DNA of 64,000 nt, taken from sequence record PV245934.1. One strand, 5' to 3'. The position numbers and the translations under genes were made by a program. Source of the stretch: Escherichia phage sutha. This document shows, piece after piece, positions 1,368-43,998 of the stretch (position 1 is its first letter; the number at the start of each line of letters is the position of its first letter). The notes beneath the pieces were generated by a model. The model searched no databases. It was given only the letters and a program-made list of their open reading frames with translations, and had not been told where the DNA came from.

Positions 1368-1386
1368 GTTTTAGTGTAAATTATAA

Positions 1387-1400
1387 AGGGCCGAAGCCCT
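1387..1400 (-). terminator. stem-loop AGGGC-CGAA-GCCCT (UUCG tetraloop in minus-strand RNA) between genes 45 and 44
   Basis: Perfect hairpin followed by T-rich tract; same element recurs at 6697, 10336, 38568. Confidence 0.4.
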
Positions 1401-1403
1401 TTA

Positions 1404-2090
1404 TTAAAAATCGTGGGTAGAATCAGCTTCAAGAGCTACTACATAATTCGCGTGTTCACCTTCAAATTTAGCAGCGCCTTGTTTACCTTTTGCCCAGAGC
1501 AGAAGTTTATAATTTCCTGGTTGCATTTTCATATTTGCCATATTGATAATGAAATTAAATGTATTTTCACCATCATAATCACCAAGAGTCAAAGAATATT
1601 TAACACGGGTCAGAGCAGAATCTTCTACTTTATTAAAACCGTTAATTACGATTTTACCTTCTTTTACCGTGATAGCAATTGTATCAATTTGCAGACCACG
1701 AGATACACGCAACAGTTGTTGAAGGTCTTCAGCTTTAATTTCGGTAACAACAGATGCTACCGGGAATGGAATTGGTTTATTAGGAGCAACTACTGTACTC
1801 GGATCGGCTGCTGGCCAAAAAATTGTTGAACGGGCATCAGCAATTTTAATATTTCCATCTTCTGACTGGGAAATTTCTGCATCATCATTAACTAAAGACA
1901 GAATACCGAGAAAACCGTTCAAATCGTAAATTGCTACATCAAAATCAATAACGTCAGAAATATTTGCTTCCGCATAAGTTGTACCATTAACTGCGCGAGT
2001 CATAATAAATTGACCGGATTTAAGCATAATACCGGAGTTAATAGTAGCGAAATTTTTAAGCAGAGCAGTAGTATCTTTAGACAGTTTCAT
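1404..2090 (-). CDS. 45: sliding clamp gp45
   Basis: 228 aa, MKLSKDTTALLKNFATINSGIMLKSGQFIMTRAVNGTTYAEANISD... matches T4 gp45. Confidence 0.95.
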   Translation of the reverse strand: MKLSKDTTALLKNFATINSGIMLKSGQFIMTRAVNGTTYAEANISDVIDFDVAIYDLNGFLGILSLVNDDAEISQSEDGNIKIADARSTIFWPAADPSTVVAPNKPIPFPVASVVTEIKAEDLQQLLRVSRGLQIDTIAITVKEGKIVINGFNKVEDSALTRVKYSLTLGDYDGENTFNFIINMANMKMQPGNYKLLLWAKGKQGAAKFEGEHANYVVALEADSTHDF

Positions 2091-6534: not shown

Positions 6535-6696
6535 ATATCAAGAACCGTCATTGAAATGCAAAATAAAATTATTGAAATAAATCCATCTGGAGTACTAAAG
6601 AACCCAATCCAACATGCTCTAGTGAATAGATAAAATGCAAGAAAAAGTATCACATATCCAAGAAATATCATTATATCAAACTCCGTATAAAGCTAA

Positions 6697-6710
6697 AGGG
6701 CCGAAGCCCT
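6697..6710 (-). terminator. UUCG-tetraloop hairpin directly downstream of a-gt stop
   Basis: AGGGCCGAAGCCCT followed by T-rich tract. Confidence 0.45.
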
Positions 6711-7913
6711 TTATTTTGTAATAATGTCAAACTGTTCTTTAAAGCAGAAGCTTGAATCTTGGTGCTGATACAAAAATTCATAAGCTTTTTCGCGTTCACG
6801 GTCATAAAGAGCTCGGTCAGATGACAGTTCTTTAATACGCTCAAATGTTGATTCCATGCCATTTTCATCAAACCAAACGATACCGCTATCATGTGAAATT
6901 AACGGAGTATTATCAACACGGAATTTTAAATTTTCACCAGTAGATTTCCAAAATACTGGAATTGTTCCGCATGCACCAAGCTCGAGATGAGTATATTCTA
7001 AAGAACGTTGTAGATATTTTTTGTCCAACTTACTCAGCTGATAACCAAATCCGGATTTACGCATACGTTCAAGCATTTCGCTATTTACATAACGGTCAAG
7101 AATTTGCGTTGGCAAATTAGGAGCAATTTTAATTTGGTCTACTTGATGAAGACGATAATACTCGTATGGAATTCCTTTTTCTTTAATAGGAATGAACGCT
7201 GGAGAACGTTCCAGACCTTCCATAATAGTACTTAGTCCTGCAGGTTTAAGATGTTTTTCATGAAAATCAAACATCTGATAAAAGCCTTTCCATGTAGTAG
7301 TACGACCAATCCAACGGTTGATATTCATGTTAATTTCAGAAACATCTTTCCAGTAGGTTGATCGAACTTTCGCAATATCCATAGGAGGCTGAAAGTTATA
7401 TACGGTCGGTGCTTCTTCAATATCATCAAACAGAGAAACAGTTTCCGGATACCATTCTTTCATCAAAACTTTATTAAAGTCACCATTATCAGAATGACTA
7501 AAAATAACATCAGCTCGACGAACAGTTTCTTCTAATCCCAAATTTCGGCGCAAAGAAAGAGAAGAATGGTCATGTTGATAAACTACAACACGAACCGAAG
7601 GTTTAATGTTATCAATAATTTTTTTATAGTTATTAATTGTGTCTTCTTCAACTGAAGTAGCAGGAACTGAATTGATAATTAGAATATCACAATCATTTAC
7701 CAGCTTAAGGGTTTTATCGTATTCTTTTGCCAATAAAACCGGAATTGAAAATGATTTATAATCATGTGCGCAATTACGAGTAAATGATTTATCTTTAGCA
7801 TAAACCAAAGTTACTTCATGACCATTTTTAATAAACCAATCACGCTGCTCAAGAGAAAATTTAGTTACACCGCAACCTTCAAGACCTCGAGCCATAAAAA
7901 TACATACTTTCAT
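6711..7913 (-). CDS. a-gt: DNA alpha-glucosyltransferase
   Basis: 400 aa, M(K/R)VCIFMARGLEGCGVTKFSLEQRDWFIKNGHEVTLVYAKDKSF... near-identical to recalled T4 alpha-gt. Confidence 0.95.
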   Translation of the reverse strand: MKVCIFMARGLEGCGVTKFSLEQRDWFIKNGHEVTLVYAKDKSFTRNCAHDYKSFSIPVLLAKEYDKTLKLVNDCDILIINSVPATSVEEDTINNYKKIIDNIKPSVRVVVYQHDHSSLSLRRNLGLEETVRRADVIFSHSDNGDFNKVLMKEWYPETVSLFDDIEEAPTVYNFQPPMDIAKVRSTYWKDVSEINMNINRWIGRTTTWKGFYQMFDFHEKHLKPAGLSTIMEGLERSPAFIPIKEKGIPYEYYRLHQVDQIKIAPNLPTQILDRYVNSEMLERMRKSGFGYQLSKLDKKYLQRSLEYTHLELGACGTIPVFWKSTGENLKFRVDNTPLISHDSGIVWFDENGMESTFERIKELSSDRALYDREREKAYEFLYQHQDSSFCFKEQFDIITK

Positions 7914-10296: not shown

Positions 10297-10348
10297 ACAT
10301 TATCCTCAATTGCGTTAAAATTTTATTATCCAAAAAGGGCCGAAGCCC

Positions 10349-10549
10349 TTAGCTAAACTGTTTGGCTCCCTTCCAGCCTTCGTACATCATTGCGGCTGAT
10401 ATTAATATTGCTCCTGCGCATTTTGAATATTTGTGATTCCAAAACCAGTTCAGAAAAACTTCGTCATCAATACCTTGGGCTATCATATTTTCAAAGAACT
10501 GACGACGAGCTTCGGCAATTCGTTGCGATAATTTAGATTCAGGATTCAT
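10349..10549 (-). CDS. hypothetical protein (66 aa)
   Basis: ORF; stop codon embedded in UUCG hairpin at 10336-10351. Confidence 0.4.
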   Translation of the reverse strand: MNPESKLSQRIAEARRQFFENMIAQGIDDEVFLNWFWNHKYSKCAGAILISAAMMYEGWKGAKQFS

Positions 10550-34891: not shown

Positions 34892-35365
34892 TTATTTGAA
34901 TGATTTGACGTACTGAATAGAACCTTTACTATTCACGAAAGCGATTTTACCATTCTTATTATACATGGTAGCAGTACGCTGATAGCCATAAGTTTGCTTA
35001 CCAGATTGATAACCAACTAATGCGAAATTATCTTCGCCCATTTTATTCTGTTTAGCGCGAATACGTTCATGACCGTGTGCCATAAGAACCTTAGCATCGC
35101 CAGTTGCAATGGATCTACGAGTTTTTTCATCTTCAACTGTATTAACAAAGTCGTCAAATGAATCAAATTTAGCGTGAGATTTATTATACAGTTTTCCATC
35201 TACTGCATAATTGTATCCTTGTACATCCATCTCAACTTCTGTACCATCATCCAATACAGCAGTGATTTTCTGTCCTTTTTTAAATTTCAAAAGATCAGTA
35301 AAAGATTCAGCAATAATTTGAGAATTAATAGCTGCTTCAGTAATAAATTCTTGATATGTTTTCAT
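34892..35365 (-). CDS. internal-protein-like (capsid-targeting-sequence bearing) protein
   Basis: 157 aa; N-terminus MKTYQEFITEA matches T4 IP capsid targeting sequence with L/I-x-E protease site. Confidence 0.6.
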   Translation of the reverse strand: MKTYQEFITEAAINSQIIAESFTDLLKFKKGQKITAVLDDGTEVEMDVQGYNYAVDGKLYNKSHAKFDSFDDFVNTVEDEKTRRSIATGDAKVLMAHGHERIRAKQNKMGEDNFALVGYQSGKQTYGYQRTATMYNKNGKIAFVNSKGSIQYVKSFK

Positions 35366-35380
35366 GTGTATCCTTTAATT

Positions 35381-35698
35381 TTATTCTTTAGGGAAGTTTT
35401 TAGAATATGCATCATAAAGCTTATTTCCAATACGGCGGAAAACTTTAGCCGCAAAACGATTTTCTGGGTTTTTAATCATGATTTGCATCATATAAGTACC
35501 CGCGTCAGAAAGAGCTTCTTCATAGTACCCGTTAATTTCTTTAAGAGTCCTACGTTTACCACCAGGACCATCAACAGTGATTTTCCATTTACCCGTAGAA
35601 GTGCGACTTGGCGGCTCAATTTGTTCAATCCAGATATAACCACCTTCTACACGTTGTCCTGCAGCAGATTCTGCAATAAATTCTTTATAGGTTTTCAT
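35381..35698 (-). CDS. internal-protein-like (CTS-bearing) protein
   Basis: 105 aa; N-terminus MKTYKEFIAES; adjacent to lysozyme e as ipIII/ipII are in T4. Confidence 0.6.
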   Translation of the reverse strand: MKTYKEFIAESAAGQRVEGGYIWIEQIEPPSRTSTGKWKITVDGPGGKRRTLKEINGYYEEALSDAGTYMMQIMIKNPENRFAAKVFRRIGNKLYDAYSKNFPKE

Positions 35699-35733
35699 GT
35701 GTTTCCTTTAAATATTTTAATTAGTAATTGTGA

Positions 35734-38548: not shown

Positions 38549-38567
38549 TCCTATTTACTCCAAGTAA

Positions 38568-38583
38568 TAGGGGCCGAAGCCCC
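38568..38583 (-). terminator. UUCG-tetraloop hairpin downstream of 38590-39183
   Basis: AGGGGCCGAAGCCCCT. Confidence 0.4.
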
Positions 38584-38589
38584 TTATCA

Positions 38590-39226: not shown

Positions 39227-39757
39227 TTATATCATGCTATTTAAGAGATGTAAACTATTTTTAATTTTACAAATTCGTTCAGCTTCTTCAACAGCGGCGG
39301 CGATAATGCTTTTAGCTATAGGAGTACTAATACTAGTAGCTTTTACACTTAACACGATTTCTTTATCTTTACCAGGCCAACCCCACGATTTTTCACCGTG
39401 AGTGCCTTTAATTACAGCAGACACCTCAAGTGAGCATCCATTATCATATGTTTTTACATTGACAACCCAAGGTTCACTTTTCTCAATCGGTTTCTCAATC
39501 GGTTTATCCCAGTAAATATTAAGAATACGTGGGACATCAAATTTGGCAGGACAAATCTTAACTGTAAGACCTTCGCTTTCTAGCCAATTAATAAGAGGGC
39601 GTTCATACAGGAGACGATGTGGGCTTGGGATTCGACAAGCCTTATGTCCGTTGCTTGCGGCTTCACTAAGCTGTTCTAATACCTGCTTTTGCATTATTGA
39701 TAAGATACCATCAAAAGATTTTTCGGAAGTTTCATTCAGTTCGGTATAAAGAGACAT
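39227..39757 (-). CDS. hypothetical protein (176 aa)
   Basis: Minus-strand ORF. Confidence 0.45.
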   Translation of the reverse strand: MSLYTELNETSEKSFDGILSIMQKQVLEQLSEAASNGHKACRIPSPHRLLYERPLINWLESEGLTVKICPAKFDVPRILNIYWDKPIEKPIEKSEPWVVNVKTYDNGCSLEVSAVIKGTHGEKSWGWPGKDKEIVLSVKATSISTPIAKSIIAAAVEEAERICKIKNSLHLLNSMI

Positions 39758-39812
39758 AACAGTTTCCTCAAATTATAGGCTCATAATATCTCAATCATGA
39801 GCCTATGTAAAC

Positions 39813-40076
39813 TTATTTCATATTATTAAAATATTCTTCTGCGATTTCGTCGTTATCATGGTAAACTTTAGAAGACAGTTTAACATAACCTTCAGCAGTG
39901 AACATGTTAATCACAACCTTTACAGTATACCACTGACCATCTTCATTACCCATTACTGCGTAAGTTTCAAACATCGGATGATCAGGACCGATAACTTTAA
40001 TATCATTCACTGTACGACCGAAATCTTCTGAAACGCATTTCATAAAGAAGTTGAACAGTTCGCCGTAATTATCCAT
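39813..40076 (-). CDS. hypothetical protein (87 aa; start moved to internal Met)
   Basis: Early promoter -10 at 40121-40126 lies inside the longer track ORF; GGAG SD precedes ATG at 40076. Confidence 0.4.
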   Translation of the reverse strand: MDNYGELFNFFMKCVSEDFGRTVNDIKVIGPDHPMFETYAVMGNEDGQWYTVKVVINMFTAEGYVKLSSKVYHDNDEIAEEYFNNMK

Positions 40077-40120
40077 TTCATTCTCCAAGTTGTTTTTCTG
40101 TATCAGTAGTTGATAGTTGT

Positions 40121-40150
40121 ATAGTACCATGGAAGAACGGGGATGTAAAC
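40121..40150 (-). promoter_or_regulatory. T4-type early promoter
   Basis: GTTTAC - 18 nt - TACTAT. Confidence 0.55.
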
Positions 40151-40288
40151 CGTTTTGTGAAAAAATTTTTTAAAAAGTTTTAGGGAATTCTAGGGCAGGG
40201 ATGGGCAATTAAAGGATAGGATAATATATTATAAAGGGTATAAACTAAATGATGCCTAGAGAGGTCCAGAAAGGCCTAGATATCAAAA

Positions 40289-40317
40289 AGCCCCAACCTT
40301 TCGGTCGGGGCTAAAAT
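40289..40317 (-). terminator. GNRA-loop hairpin terminator; copy 1 of 29-bp direct repeat
   Basis: AAAAAGCCCCAACCTTTCGGTCGGGGCTA; in minus-strand RNA forms AGCCCCGACC-GAAA-GGUUGGGGCU followed by U5; identical copy at 40840-40868. Confidence 0.6.
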
Positions 40318-40318
40318 G

Positions 40319-40792
40319 TTATTTGATTTGTTTAGCAGACCAAATGCGGTCTTTAATAATTTTTTGGATGTCTTCAACATACTCTAGGTCATGAGCATGT
40401 GGGTTGTCTTTGAAACTATAAGCACGGGCTAACTTTTGGCCTTCGGTTTTGATTACTAAAAGCTCTTTAAGGATAGCTTCATATTTAGCGATAATTCCTT
40501 TAACAATATTTTTTTCTTGTGCAGCTTTAGGATCTGCTTTAGGAGCAGGTTTACCGGAAGGTTTTTCGAAAGCCGCACCAGTAGCAACCAGGCTTTTCCA
40601 GGCGGTGGTAACATAGTTACCCACAAAGCCTTCAGCTCTCATATCGTCGTAGAACTTGTACCGGGATTCATCAGAAGCATCTTTATAAGAATATTTACCA
40701 GCTTTAATAGCAGCAGTTGCTACAGCGCGAACATCTGAAGCGGATGCTTCATTTAACGCCACTTCATTTAAAAATTGAGCATATGATTTCAT
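40319..40792 (-). CDS. CTS-bearing internal-protein-like protein
   Basis: 157 aa; N-terminus MKSYAQFLNEVALNE resembles IP capsid targeting sequence with two L-N-E protease sites; preceded by late promoter. Confidence 0.5.
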   Translation of the reverse strand: MKSYAQFLNEVALNEASASDVRAVATAAIKAGKYSYKDASDESRYKFYDDMRAEGFVGNYVTTAWKSLVATGAAFEKPSGKPAPKADPKAAQEKNIVKGIIAKYEAILKELLVIKTEGQKLARAYSFKDNPHAHDLEYVEDIQKIIKDRIWSAKQIK

Positions 40793-40831
40793 CTTATTTC
40801 CTGTTTTAATTCGTGATTTAATATACTACTA

Positions 40832-40839
40832 TATTTATA
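40832..40839 (-). promoter_or_regulatory. late promoter (TATAAATA) for CTS-bearing gene
   Basis: Minus-strand TATAAATA about 40 nt upstream of ATG at 40792. Confidence 0.5.
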
Positions 40840-40868
40840 CCAAAAAGCCCCAACCTTTCGGTCGGGGC
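40840..40868 (-). repeat. copy 2 of 29-bp hairpin direct repeat (terminator-like)
   Basis: Identical to 40289-40317. Confidence 0.6.
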
Positions 40869-40869
40869 T

Positions 40870-41150
40870 AAGCCTTGCGGCAACCTTGTCGGGGTTCCAC
40901 CTGCTAAGGCAAGTGTTTGTACGAAACGCCGGGATTCGAACCCGGTTATTAAGCAGTTGACGCTACTCAATATTTTTAAAAGGCCATATCTCGACCATAT
41001 CCGAACGTTCCGTCAAAAACGCTACTCGGCTTACGGCAAAGATATTTCCTCGAATCGATAATTCGGTGCGCCGTTTCAGCTGTGATAGTAAAGAACCAGA
41101 ACACAGTAAAACTGTGGGAGGAACTATACTCCAGGGAACATCAGTCCGAC
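40870..41150 (-). ncRNA. putative small stable RNA locus (T4 species 1/2-like), boundaries approximate
   Basis: Non-coding 280 bp downstream of tRNA cluster with tRNA-like T-arm (GGGTTCGAATCCCGG) and paired ends CGAAACG/CGTTTCG about 140 nt apart. Confidence 0.4.
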
Positions 41151-41153
41151 GAC

Positions 41154-41708
41154 TTACCGGTAGCGACCCGGTTTCTCATTTGGTATTTCAAATTGTGTAG
41201 ATTTAGTATCTAATTTTTTAACTATGGAACTTATGTCATGAAAGAAAAACCATTCACTATTTATATGGTCCTGATTATAAATGCTGTGCATATATTTTTC
41301 AAGTTCTACTGCATCCTGGGAATATCTAAATGATACTATTTTAAAACTTTTAAACGGTGAAAATGTATTTGCTGTTATAACTCTAACATCAGGTTCTATA
41401 CTTCTTCCTATTTTATAATAATTAGGATTTGTAGTATCTACCATTATGTATACGAAAGCCTGTCGATAGCTTTTTTCTATATCAAATTCATCTTTAAATT
41501 TCAAAAGATTTAGGGCGGCAGTCCTACAAAATACTTTCCATTTTGACAAGCGTTTGGCTTTAGTCATAGAAAAGAATTTTTTCTTATCTGTTATTTTAAG
41601 AAAAGCAACATTTTCAATTAGTTCTTGTGTTATTTCAAAATTACCATGGTATATTAATCCAGCTTTTATAGCCAAATTAATTTGGTCCCAGTCTACATCA
41701 CTTCTCAT
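41154..41708 (-). CDS. T5orf172/GIY-YIG-like domain protein
   Basis: 184 aa; C-terminal half has AFVYIMVDTTNPNYYKIGRSIEPDVRV... resembling T5orf172 (KIG-x-S/T) motif; sits between tRNA-Arg and stable RNA locus. Confidence 0.5.
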   Translation of the reverse strand: MRSDVDWDQINLAIKAGLIYHGNFEITQELIENVAFLKITDKKKFFSMTKAKRLSKWKVFCRTAALNLLKFKDEFDIEKSYRQAFVYIMVDTTNPNYYKIGRSIEPDVRVITANTFSPFKSFKIVSFRYSQDAVELEKYMHSIYNQDHINSEWFFFHDISSIVKKLDTKSTQFEIPNEKPGRYR

Positions 41709-43695: not shown

Positions 43696-43968
43696 TCATT
43701 TTAAATAAATTGCGTATTTTTTATAGCCACCAGGCTCGTGTCGAAGACCCTTATCATTAGCAAAACGCTCAATGTTGTTAATTTGATTCTGGTCAAGTTC
43801 AGAGATGTCAAACACGAAATAGTTACGTTTGTTACCAACTGTTACATAGTCAGTTAAATCAATACCATATAGGTAATTGATGTTATCAATCATAGTCTTG
43901 ACAGCTTTGCTAATTTTTACTTCTTCATTAAGAGCAGATTCAACGATAAACTCTTTAAATGTTTTCAT
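43696..43968 (-). CDS. internal protein I-like (CTS-bearing) protein
   Basis: 90 aa; N-terminus MKTFKEFIVESALNE; position upstream of 57B as T4 ipI. Confidence 0.6.
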   Translation of the reverse strand: MKTFKEFIVESALNEEVKISKAVKTMIDNINYLYGIDLTDYVTVGNKRNYFVFDISELDQNQINNIERFANDKGLRHEPGGYKKYAIYLK

Positions 43969-43998
43969 TTTATTTTCCTAATTAATTTTGATGAGGTA

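What the first reader, a model, noticed from the sequence alone, without database searches (positions are those of the whole stretch)
40289..40868. Identical 29-bp hairpin direct repeats bracket a late-promoter-driven, CTS-bearing gene
AAAAAGCCCCAACCTTTCGGTCGGGGCTA occurs at 40289-40317 and 40840-40868, each forming a GNRA-loop hairpin with a U-tract in the minus-strand transcript. Between them are a TATAAATA late promoter and a 157-aa ORF whose N-terminus (MKSYAQFLNEVALNE) resembles the internal-protein capsid targeting sequence. Identical flanking repeats suggest a cassette exchangeable by homologous recombination.
Basis: seen in the sequence. Interest (0 to 1): 0.5.

Follow-up and report, generated by a model that had tools for sequence, protein, structure and literature searches.

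The report
Terminator-bounded optional internal-protein gene in T4-like phage
Two copies of one transcription terminator flank an optional late gene in this T4-like phage; the gene probably encodes a protein packed into the phage head, belongs to an uncharacterised family missing from T2, T4 and T6, and its gain or loss follows an already described pattern.

Summary
The repeat is real. On the minus strand each copy is a 10-bp stem, a GAAA loop and a U5 tract, which is an intrinsic terminator. Copy 2 is the terminator of the tRNA/rnaD/rnaC operon. T4, T2 and T6 carry it once and have no gene between rnaC and e.8.

Between the copies lie a TATAAATA late promoter and a 157-aa ORF. Its N-terminus has all four critical residues of the capsid-targeting sequence (Y4, F7, L8, E10) and two L-x-E protease sites. 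The protein belongs to phrog_2280, a small family found only in T4-like phages and always annotated "hypothetical".

Relatives show four states at this site: empty, gene A, paralog B, or A+B. Every junction falls in the 3' half of a terminator. That fits gain or loss of modules by recombination at the terminators.

The stronger claim fails. Only members of this one family occupy the slot, allele-exchange breakpoints lie inside the gene, and the two copies differ by 1-3 nt in relatives. This is a new member of known kinds (internal-protein genes, PeSL/moron-like modules). Packaging into the head is inferred, not shown.

The parts
40842..40870 (-). Hairpin copy 2. This is the intrinsic terminator of the tRNA/rnaD/rnaC operon. 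The extended repeat is 40837-40871.
   Evidence: Exact 29-mer. Folds at -21.6 kcal/mol and is followed by U5. T4 has the same 29-mer once, directly after rnaC. PMC2330249 states that the T4 tRNA-operon transcript terminates after the species I RNA gene.
40832..40839 (-). TATAAATA, the T4 late-promoter consensus, 2 nt after the U-tract of copy 2 and 39 nt upstream of the ATG.
   Evidence: Sequence. It sits at the same position in all Tequatrovirus gene-A modules examined and in L008, L010 and LF82-35. It reads AATAAATA in the 154-aa gene-A modules of RPN187, ST2, L009 and the Dhakavirus 04086. The motif count in the window is not above chance.
40799..40802 (-). Shine-Dalgarno-like AGGA, 6 nt upstream of the ATG.
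   Evidence: Read from the sequence.
40319..40792 (-). Gene A: a 157-aa ORF of family phrog_2280. It has a CTS-like propeptide (MKSYAQFLNE/VALNE/), a helical N-domain, a Pro/Lys linker and a C-terminal helical hairpin.
   Evidence: ORF. phrog_2280 at E = 2e-54. Present in 511 phage records. dN/dS of about 0.1-0.17. CTS alignment. AF2 model with pLDDT 73. Mature protein pI 9.3.
40285..40313 (-). Hairpin copy 1: the intrinsic terminator of gene A, 5 nt after its stop codon. The extended repeat is 40280-40314.
   Evidence: Exact 29-mer. Folds at -20.9 kcal/mol and is followed by U5. In A+B genomes, paralog B is inserted immediately after this U-tract, at window position 40281-40284.
40920..41058 (-). 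rnaC (species 1 RNA) homolog, the last gene of the operon that copy 2 terminates.
   Evidence: Full-length alignment to the T4 rnaC annotation.
41065..41179 (-). rnaD (species 2 RNA) homolog with a divergent core.
   Evidence: Alignment to T4 rnaD with a low score in the central part. The core differs completely from RPN226.
39813..40076 (-). e.8 homolog, the conserved downstream neighbour. Its early-type promoter lies at about 40121-40149.
   Evidence: The phrog_2678 match starts at residue 19 of the mechanically listed ORF. T4 annotation. Promoter scan. Member of the early-promoter repeat families D1, D2 and D4.

Best explanation
The two repeats are two copies of one rho-independent terminator used on minus-strand transcripts. 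Copy 2 ends the early/middle tRNA-rnaD-rnaC operon. Copy 1 ends a single-gene late transcription unit that starts at the TATAAATA promoter directly after copy 2.

That unit encodes a 157-aa basic protein of an uncharacterised family restricted to T4-like phages (phrog_2280). Its first 10-15 residues are a capsid-targeting propeptide. I infer that the protein is made late, drawn into the prohead core, cut by the gp21 prohead protease after FLNE(10) and/or ALNE(15), and injected with the DNA, as the known internal proteins are. Its role after injection, possibly anti-defence, is unknown.

The unit [promoter-gene-terminator] is optional. Because it ends with the same sequence that precedes it (about 34 nt, ...GGTTGGGGCTTTTTGGTAT), recombination between the two terminator copies removes it cleanly and leaves the single-terminator arrangement seen in T4, T2 and T6. 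Integration of an excised circle at a single terminator, or a cross with an occupied genome, would add it.

Shown here: terminator anatomy, the optional module, junction positions, and the paralog array. Inferred: late transcription, packaging and cleavage, and terminator-terminator recombination as the event that makes the indels.
For: - Terminator: the fold, the U-tract and the position after a stop codon and after rnaC. Hairpin variants in relatives mostly keep pairing as RNA on the minus strand, for example a GA-to-AG swap and a C-G to U-A change. The literature reports termination after species I RNA in T4.
- Empty site: T4, T2 and T6 have one exact copy that joins the left flank of copy 1 to the right flank of copy 2.
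- Four states, all with junctions at GGGCTTTTT: A only (window, RPN226, RB68, L011), B only (RB14), A+B (F13076, D5505, HMD-9, ST2, L007) and empty.
- Frequency: gene A is in 511 phage records and gene B in 165, out of about 745-772 records that match the region.
- CTS: the N-terminal pattern picks out only this ORF, the genes at the two classical IP loci, and one weak neighbour among all ORFs of at least 50 aa in the 64 kb. Y4, F7, L8 and E10 fit the functional map of the CTS. The first 15 residues resemble the window's own ipI-locus protein, MKTFKEFIVESALNE. The Dhakavirus homolog's N-terminus hits the IPII profile at E = 7e-4. The mature protein has pI 9.3, like T4 IPI-III at 8.9-9.5.
- Real gene: dN/dS is well below 1.
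- Homology length: about 34 nt is within the range of small homology patches (<50 bp) that Arbiol et al. (PMC2839356) cite as sufficient for T4 recombination.
Against: - No virion proteomics or transcript mapping for this family could be found.
- TATAAATA is not enriched in the window.
- Hairpin covariation is statistically weak: 164 of 500 shuffles reach the observed score.
- Paralog B ends in a different hairpin that shares only about 14 nt (GGGCTTTTTGGTAT) with the rnaC terminator junction. Its gain or loss needs microhomology, not a 29-nt repeat.
- Junctions at terminators could reflect selection for intact transcription units rather than a preferred recombination site.
- Allele mosaicism has breakpoints inside the gene.
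- The classical IP genes in this window use early-type promoters with stem-loops, not a lone late promoter.
Confidence: 0.6

Rival explanations
1. The repeat is only a by-product. An ancestral [promoter-gene-terminator] unit duplicated in tandem, and each unit needs a terminator. The copies stay alike through functional constraint and the general mosaic recombination of T4-like phages. Indels spread by ordinary homologous recombination in the flanks during co-infection, and the hairpins are not preferred crossover sites.
For: - A, B and C are paralogs of one family arranged in tandem.
- The copies differ by 1-3 nt in several relatives.
- Another identical terminator pair exists at 1384 and 6694.
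- H-like hairpins follow unrelated genes in a Dhakavirus.
- The allele mosaic breakpoints lie within the gene.
- The window is a mosaic around 40824-40863 relative to RPN226, which can explain why its two copies are identical.
Against: - A and B are only about 28% identical, yet the rnaC terminator and the gene-A terminator are 29/29 identical. Descent from the old duplication alone does not explain that identity.
- Every one of the four states has its junctions inside the hairpin 3' half.
- The empty state is exactly what repeat-mediated deletion predicts.
Confidence: 0.3
2. The ORF is an ordinary late cytoplasmic protein. Its CTS-like N-terminus is a relic or a coincidence of a shared translation-start region, so it is not an internal protein.
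For: - The mature part has no detectable similarity to IPI, IPII or IPIII.
- All records annotate it as hypothetical. The curated RB14 record names Ip4, IpI and Ip5 but leaves paralog B unnamed.
- It lies outside the two recognised IP loci.
Against: - The motif is conserved across alleles that are 70-96% identical, and in paralogs B and C (MKTYAEFLTE, MYTFNEFLAE), while the bodies diverge to 28%.
- The DNA of the leader is not part of the repeat family shared by the classical IP genes (D3), so the conservation is at the peptide level.
- Known IPs are not homologous to each other either (one search places them in different PHROGs).
Confidence: 0.22
3. The hairpins act mainly as RNA 3'-end stabilisers or processing signals for the rnaC precursor and the late mRNA, and not as terminators.
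For: The hairpin lies 49 nt beyond the annotated mature 3' end of rnaC, so the primary transcript is processed. GNRA-loop hairpins are very stable.
Against: A U5 tract follows immediately, which is the intrinsic-terminator signature. The literature places termination of the tRNA operon after species I RNA. The two roles are compatible with each other.
Confidence: 0.08

Closest known systems
T4 internal proteins IPI, IPII and IPIII, and the polymorphic Ip4, Ip5... set of T-even phages (Repoila et al. 1994; Mullaney & Black 1996)
   Same: A roughly 10-residue N-terminal CTS (MKTYQEFIAE type) with the critical Y4/F7 and I-or-L8/E10. L/I-x-E protease sites. Small basic proteins. Variable presence among close relatives. 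Bodies unrelated between family members.
   Different: - It sits at a third locus (rnaC/e.8), not the denV-e or 57B-tRNA.4 loci.
- It is absent from T2, T4 and T6.
- It is driven by a lone late promoter behind a strong terminator, rather than an early-type promoter with a stem-loop.
- Packaging is untested.
- It has never been annotated as an Ip.
PeSL cassettes (promoter-early stem-loop) of RB49/phi1 and other T4-like phages (Arbiol et al. 2010, PMC2839356; Comeau et al. 2014, PMC4122927)
   Same: Short conserved terminator/promoter composites flank optional single genes. The indel between relatives leaves one copy of the element. The model is recombination between flanking copies, with possible circular intermediates.
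   Different: The promoter here is the late TATAAATA, not a sigma-70-like early one. The shared element is essentially the terminator alone (29-35 nt, against about 100 nt). Only one gene family uses the site. No mini-circles have been shown.
Morons of lambdoid phages (a gene with its own promoter and terminator inserted between two genes)
   Same: An autonomous transcription unit inserted between conserved neighbours and insulated by terminators.
   Different: [quoted passage not shown] Here the boundary repeats are themselves plausible recombination substrates.
The T4 tRNA-operon terminator after species I RNA (rnaC)
   Same: Copy 2 is this element. The 29-mer is 100% identical to the T4 sequence.
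   Different: In this genome a second copy also terminates the inserted late gene.

Membership tests
T4-type internal (CTS-bearing, head-packaged) proteins | An N-terminal capsid-targeting sequence of about 10 residues, with targeting residues at positions 4 and 7 and processing residues at 8 and 10 | tested here: met
   MKSYAQFLNE against MKTYQEFIAE gives Y4, F7, L8 (for I8) and E10. The pattern is specific to IP genes within the window.
T4-type internal (CTS-bearing, head-packaged) proteins | A gp21 prohead-protease cleavage motif (L/I-x-E) at the end of the propeptide | tested here: met
   L-N-E at residues 8-10 and again at 13-15. The motif is retained in the alleles and in paralogs B and C.
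T4-type internal (CTS-bearing, head-packaged) proteins | Physical presence of the processed protein in the mature head, and injection with the DNA | not testable with these tools
   No proteomic report was found. This needs LC-MS/MS of virions.
T4-type internal (CTS-bearing, head-packaged) proteins | Location in one of the two recognised IP loci (denV-e, 57B-tRNA.4) | tested here: not met
   The gene lies between rnaC and e.8. Arbiol et al. state that IP genes are confined to two loci. Location is a descriptive feature, not a mechanistic one.
T4-type internal (CTS-bearing, head-packaged) proteins | Expression compatible with prohead assembly (late transcription) | tested here: inconclusive
   An exact TATAAATA sits 39 nt upstream and is conserved in relatives. 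The motif is not enriched in the window, and there are no transcript data.
Rho-independent (intrinsic) terminators | A G+C-rich stem-loop immediately followed by a U-tract, downstream of a gene on the transcribed strand | tested here: met
   A 10-bp stem with 7 G-C pairs, a GAAA loop and U5, at -21 kcal/mol. It lies 5 nt after the ORF stop codon and after rnaC.
Rho-independent (intrinsic) terminators | Demonstrated termination activity | not testable with these tools
   There is only the literature statement for the T4 operon.
PeSL (promoter-early stem-loop) mobile regulatory cassettes | [quoted passage not shown] | tested here: not met
   The promoter next to the stem-loop is the late TATAAATA. 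No -35/-10 pair lies between copy 2 and the ATG.
PeSL (promoter-early stem-loop) mobile regulatory cassettes | Copies flank optional genes, and relatives that lack the gene retain a single copy | tested here: met
   T4, T2 and T6 have a single copy. The window, RB68 and D5505 have two.
PeSL (promoter-early stem-loop) mobile regulatory cassettes | Excised mini-circles carrying the gene and one element | not testable with these tools
   This requires inverse PCR on infected cells or virions.
T4 late promoters | TATAAATA at about -10, with no -35 element | tested here: met
   Exact octamer at 40832-40839 on the minus strand. Function was not tested.

The most novel reading that the evidence does not exclude
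phrog_2280 is an unrecognised family of head-packaged, injected internal proteins that occupies a third IP locus directly behind the tRNA-operon terminator. It was missed because T2, T4 and T6 all lack it. The tRNA-operon terminator also serves as the docking and excision sequence for these late-gene modules, as a late-promoter analogue of PeSL cassettes. The divergent N-domain (dS of about 1.2 between alleles) would then be a host-interaction or anti-defence surface.
Probability: 0.35. Interest if true: 0.55.

Novelty: new member of a known kind. Interest (0 to 1): 0.4.

Why it matters
Internal proteins are injected with the DNA and act before any phage gene is expressed. IPI blocks the GmrSD restriction system, and IPIII is needed on E. 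coli ECOR17. A further CTS-bearing family that is present in roughly two thirds of sequenced T4-like coliphages but absent from the model phages would be a ready set of candidate first-response anti-defence effectors. It would also be a natural payload slot for CTS-based protein delivery.

The four-state locus is a clean natural example of how terminator sequences delimit gene gain and loss in T4-like genomes. The concept itself is already published (Repoila 1994; Arbiol 2010; Comeau 2014).

Tried and rejected
- The IMG/VR scan anchored on rnaC gave only 5 loci, too few for a census. The population picture therefore rests on BLAST tables and 20 fetched loci.
- Rfam has no family covering rnaC, rnaD or the hairpin; only tRNAs were found.
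- Hairpin covariation: only one true compensatory pair, and the shuffle control is not significant. I did not use it as evidence.
- Cassette alleles swapped at the hairpins: rejected. Divergence between alleles is concentrated in codons 16-75, with identical CTS/leader and similar 3' halves.
- Unrelated genes in the slot: the apparently different L010 gene turned out to be a frameshifted member of the same family, and the intact form is in LF82-35.
- Fold searches of the AF2 model against PDB and BFVD gave only self-family hits. Pfam and NCBIfam gave nothing.
- Literature: no paper mentions RB69ORF148c/149c, RB14ncORF136c or RB32ORF133c. A proteomics search and an Ip4/Ip5 search were unproductive. 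Repoila 1994 and Miller 2003 are not held. The supplement of the PST/T4 comparison is not held.
- TATAAATA as statistical evidence: rejected, because the count equals the chance expectation.

Full report
**Observation**

The window is a Tequatrovirus (T4-like) genome: 772 phage records match the region, and the best matches are 94-98% identical. The 29-mer AAAAAGCCCCAACCTTTCGGTCGGGGCTA occurs exactly twice, at 40285-40313 and 40842-40870. No further copy appears with up to 3 mismatches, and none appears in 100 shuffles. The repeat extends to 35 nt at 34/35 identity.

As minus-strand RNA each copy is a 10-bp stem with 7 G-C pairs and one G-U pair, a GAAA loop and UUUUU. The energies are -20.9 and -21.6 kcal/mol. 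Between the copies lie TATAAATA (40832-40839, minus strand), an AGGA ribosome-binding site, and a 157-aa ORF (40319-40792, minus strand) that starts MKSYAQFLNEVALNE.

**Context**

Reading the minus strand, the order is:
- ten tRNA genes (42682-41730);
- a 184-aa T5orf172/MUG113-domain ORF;
- rnaD (41179-41065) and rnaC (41058-40920);
- hairpin copy 2, the late promoter, the ORF, and hairpin copy 1;
- about 150 nt holding an early-type promoter, then the e.8 homolog.

In T4 the same 29-mer is present once, directly after rnaC, and no gene lies between rnaC and e.8. T2 and T6 are the same. The T4 tRNA operon is reported to terminate after species I RNA, which is rnaC (PMC2330249). Copy 2 is therefore that known operon terminator. 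The T4 single copy joins exactly the left flank of the window's copy 1 to the right flank of its copy 2.

**Occupancy states**

A 60-record spread sample of 745 matching records, plus fetched loci, shows four states of the rnaC-e.8 interval:
- empty: T4, T2, T6, RB3, SV76;
- gene A only: the window, RPN226, RB68, L011, and most of the sample;
- gene B only, a 187-aa paralog: RB14, P922, EP01;
- A followed by B: F13076, D5505, HMD-9, ST2, L007.

On the minus strand the modules read as follows:
- rnaC-H-TTTTT | (G/A)GTATAAATA...A...H-TTTTT
- | AGTTTGAATC...AATAAATA...B...H'(CCCTATCTAAATGATAGGGC)-TTTTT
- | GGTATCTAGGCC...e.8

Every junction lies right after ...GGGCTTTTT. Each state can therefore be derived from another by an exchange within a terminator. 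Gain or loss of A has about 34 nt of homology available. Gain or loss of B, or of A+B together, has only about 14 nt (GGGCTTTTTGGTAT).

By tblastn, gene A is in 511 records and gene B in 165. The exact 31-mer is in 419 records at 514 places, so roughly 95 genomes carry two exact copies.

**The protein**

A, B and a third form C all fall in phrog_2280, function unknown. Form C is 208 aa, starts MYTFNEFLAE, and is intact in Mosigvirus LF82-35 but frameshifted in L010. The family is tiny: 11 clusters in 5.8 billion proteins, all named hypothetical. Pfam and NCBIfam give no match.

The AF2 model has pLDDT 73. It shows a disordered residue 1-15 segment, a confident helical domain (18-75), a Pro/Lys linker and a C-terminal helical hairpin. 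It has no fold match in PDB, and only its own family in BFVD.

The N-terminus matches the capsid-targeting sequence of T4 IPII and IPIII (MKTYQEFIAE) at M1, K2, Y4, F7 and E10, with conservative S3, Q6 and L8. The review of Black's work reports that positions 4 and 7 carry targeting and positions 8 and 10 carry processing (PMC9026906). All four fit. L-x-E protease motifs occur at residues 8-10 and 13-15. The 15-residue propeptide resembles that of the window's own ipI-locus protein, MKTFKEFIVESALNE, which falls in phrog_7673 'internal head protein'.

A regular expression for the CTS finds only five ORFs among all ATG-started ORFs of at least 50 aa in six frames: this one, three at the two classical IP loci, and a weak match next door. 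The mature protein is basic (pI 9.3), as are T4 IPI-III. The gene is under purifying selection, with dN/dS of about 0.1-0.17.

Packaging itself is inferred. No proteomic or transcript data were found. The curated RB14 record names Ip4, IpI and Ip5 at the classical loci but leaves gene B as 'hypothetical'. Arbiol et al. state that IP genes are confined to two small loci (PMC2839356). This would be a third locus, one that T2, T4 and T6 lack.

**Testing the cassette-exchange idea**

Support for the idea is the presence/absence pattern and the junction positions described above. Several results limit it.
- Only members of one family occupy the slot directly after the rnaC terminator, in the Tequatrovirus, Mosigvirus and Dhakavirus loci examined. 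Gaprivervirus SP18 has unrelated early genes nearby instead.
- Between the window's allele and the RB68/D5505 allele, the flanks are 98-100% identical, and divergence is concentrated in codons 16-75 (dS of about 1.2-1.5). By contrast, dS is 0.2-0.3 in codons 76-157, 0.04-0.2 in e.8, and 0 in the CTS codons. So old allelic segments are exchanged with breakpoints at the conserved CTS/leader and at mid-gene, by ordinary homologous recombination and not at the hairpins.
- The two copies are not always identical: they differ by 1 nt in F13076, 2 in RPN226, and 3 in HMD-9 and RB68.
- The window differs from RPN226 at only one position across 39800-40823. It then differs at 40824, 40841, 40862 and 40863 and throughout the rnaD core. 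A mosaic junction at the promoter and copy 2 therefore probably explains why the two copies are identical in this genome.
- The window holds another 100% identical terminator pair at 1384 and 6694, and H-like hairpins follow unrelated genes in a Dhakavirus.
- Hairpin covariation is compatible with an RNA stem on the minus strand but is not statistically significant.
- TATAAATA occurs at chance frequency in the window. It is, however, retained at the same place in all Tequatrovirus A modules and in gene-C modules whose leaders are otherwise unrelated. It reads AATAAATA in the 154-aa gene-A modules (RPN187, ST2, L009, 04086) and upstream of gene B.

**Mechanism**

I judge the following most likely, with confidence 0.6. 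Early and middle transcription of the tRNA operon stops at copy 2. Late in infection, gp55-RNA polymerase starts at TATAAATA and stops at copy 1, giving a monocistronic mRNA. The product enters the prohead through its propeptide, is trimmed by gp21, and is injected with the DNA.

The module is gained or lost by recombination between terminator copies. This is the same logic as the PeSL model, in which excision between flanking elements leaves one element behind and a circle could re-integrate (PMC2839356). Because the family occupies the same position in Tequatro-, Mosig- and Dhakaviruses, with a fragment in a Jiaodavirus, the empty T2/T4/T6 state is more likely a loss than the ancestral condition.

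The main rival (0.3) is that the hairpins merely mark transcription-unit boundaries and that selection, not a recombination preference, places the junctions there.

**Verdict**

This is a new member of known kinds: a CTS-bearing internal-protein gene, and a terminator-bounded optional module. Two points of moderate interest remain: a probable third IP locus, and an uncharacterised family that is common in T4-like coliphages but absent from the model phages.

Noticed in passing
window 41154-41708 (-): A 184-aa ORF with a T5orf172/MUG113 domain (phrog_5032, with weaker hits to homing-endonuclease PHROGs) sits between tRNA-Arg and rnaD, and its 3' end overlaps the 5' end of rnaD. Synteny with most relatives breaks at 41176-41184. 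T4 has tRNA-Arg abutting rnaD, and T2, RB68 and D5505 carry a 116-aa ORF there instead. It is probably a free-standing mobile nuclease gene, and it could drive co-conversion of the neighbouring module.
   Followed up: partly
window 41065-41131 (-), rnaD core: The central part of rnaD (species 2 RNA) is completely different from that of T4 and RPN226 but matches HMD-9, while both ends are conserved. So rnaD exists in at least two core variants among close relatives.
   Followed up: partly
window 39227-39757 (-): A 176-aa ORF in the e.7 slot (phrog_6869) starts MSLYTELNE, a weak and shifted CTS-like motif with an L-N-E site. It sits behind an early-type promoter that overlaps a stem-loop. The gene is variable among relatives (many matches start only at 39813) and sits next to gene A in Mosigviruses.
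   Followed up: partly
window 1384-1405, 6694-6715, 10333-10354, 38567-38588: A family of GGGCCGAAGCCC hairpins. Two copies are 100% identical over 22 nt. This shows that identical short terminator-like hairpins recur in this genome outside the locus studied.
   Followed up: no
window 35330-35391, 35663-35724, 43933-43994: The three classical IP genes of the window share a 62-nt DNA repeat covering the RBS, the start codon and the CTS codons (61-81% identity). Gene A is not part of this DNA family even though its peptide motif matches.
   Followed up: partly
window 40110-40152 and 22944, 24386, 24865, 28890, 11178: A repeat family of early-type promoters (GTTTACA ... TGGTACTATACAACTATCAA on the minus strand) that includes the e.8 promoter. 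These are the T-even analogues of PeSL elements described in the literature.
   Followed up: no
proteins P0010 and P0011 (metagenome-derived relatives): Two chimeric proteins. P0010 joins an unrelated PF26894 N-terminus to the last roughly 30 residues of gene A. P0011 joins residues of about 12-42 of gene A to a NudE-like C-terminus, which implies a deletion of about 3 kb from gene A to nudE. The region seems prone to deletions.
   Followed up: partly
L020 (Escherichia phage 04086, OR842557) about 76-285 nt after the rnaC anchor: The record contains a partial duplicate of [hairpin-promoter-first 39 codons of gene A] interrupted by N. It looks like an assembly artefact at the repeated hairpin rather than biology.
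   Followed up: no
window 39813-40130 (-): The mechanically listed e.8 ORF (105 aa) starts upstream of the e.8 early promoter. The PHROG match and the T4 annotation indicate that the real start is at 40076 (87 aa).
   Followed up: yes
window 40747-40763 (codons 11-15 of gene A): Tequatrovirus alleles carry an extra 4-5 residues (V/A-A/V-L-N/T-E) relative to the 154-aa alleles (Mosigvirus, Dhakavirus, ST2). This duplicates the L-x-E protease motif and gives a 15-residue propeptide.
   Followed up: partly
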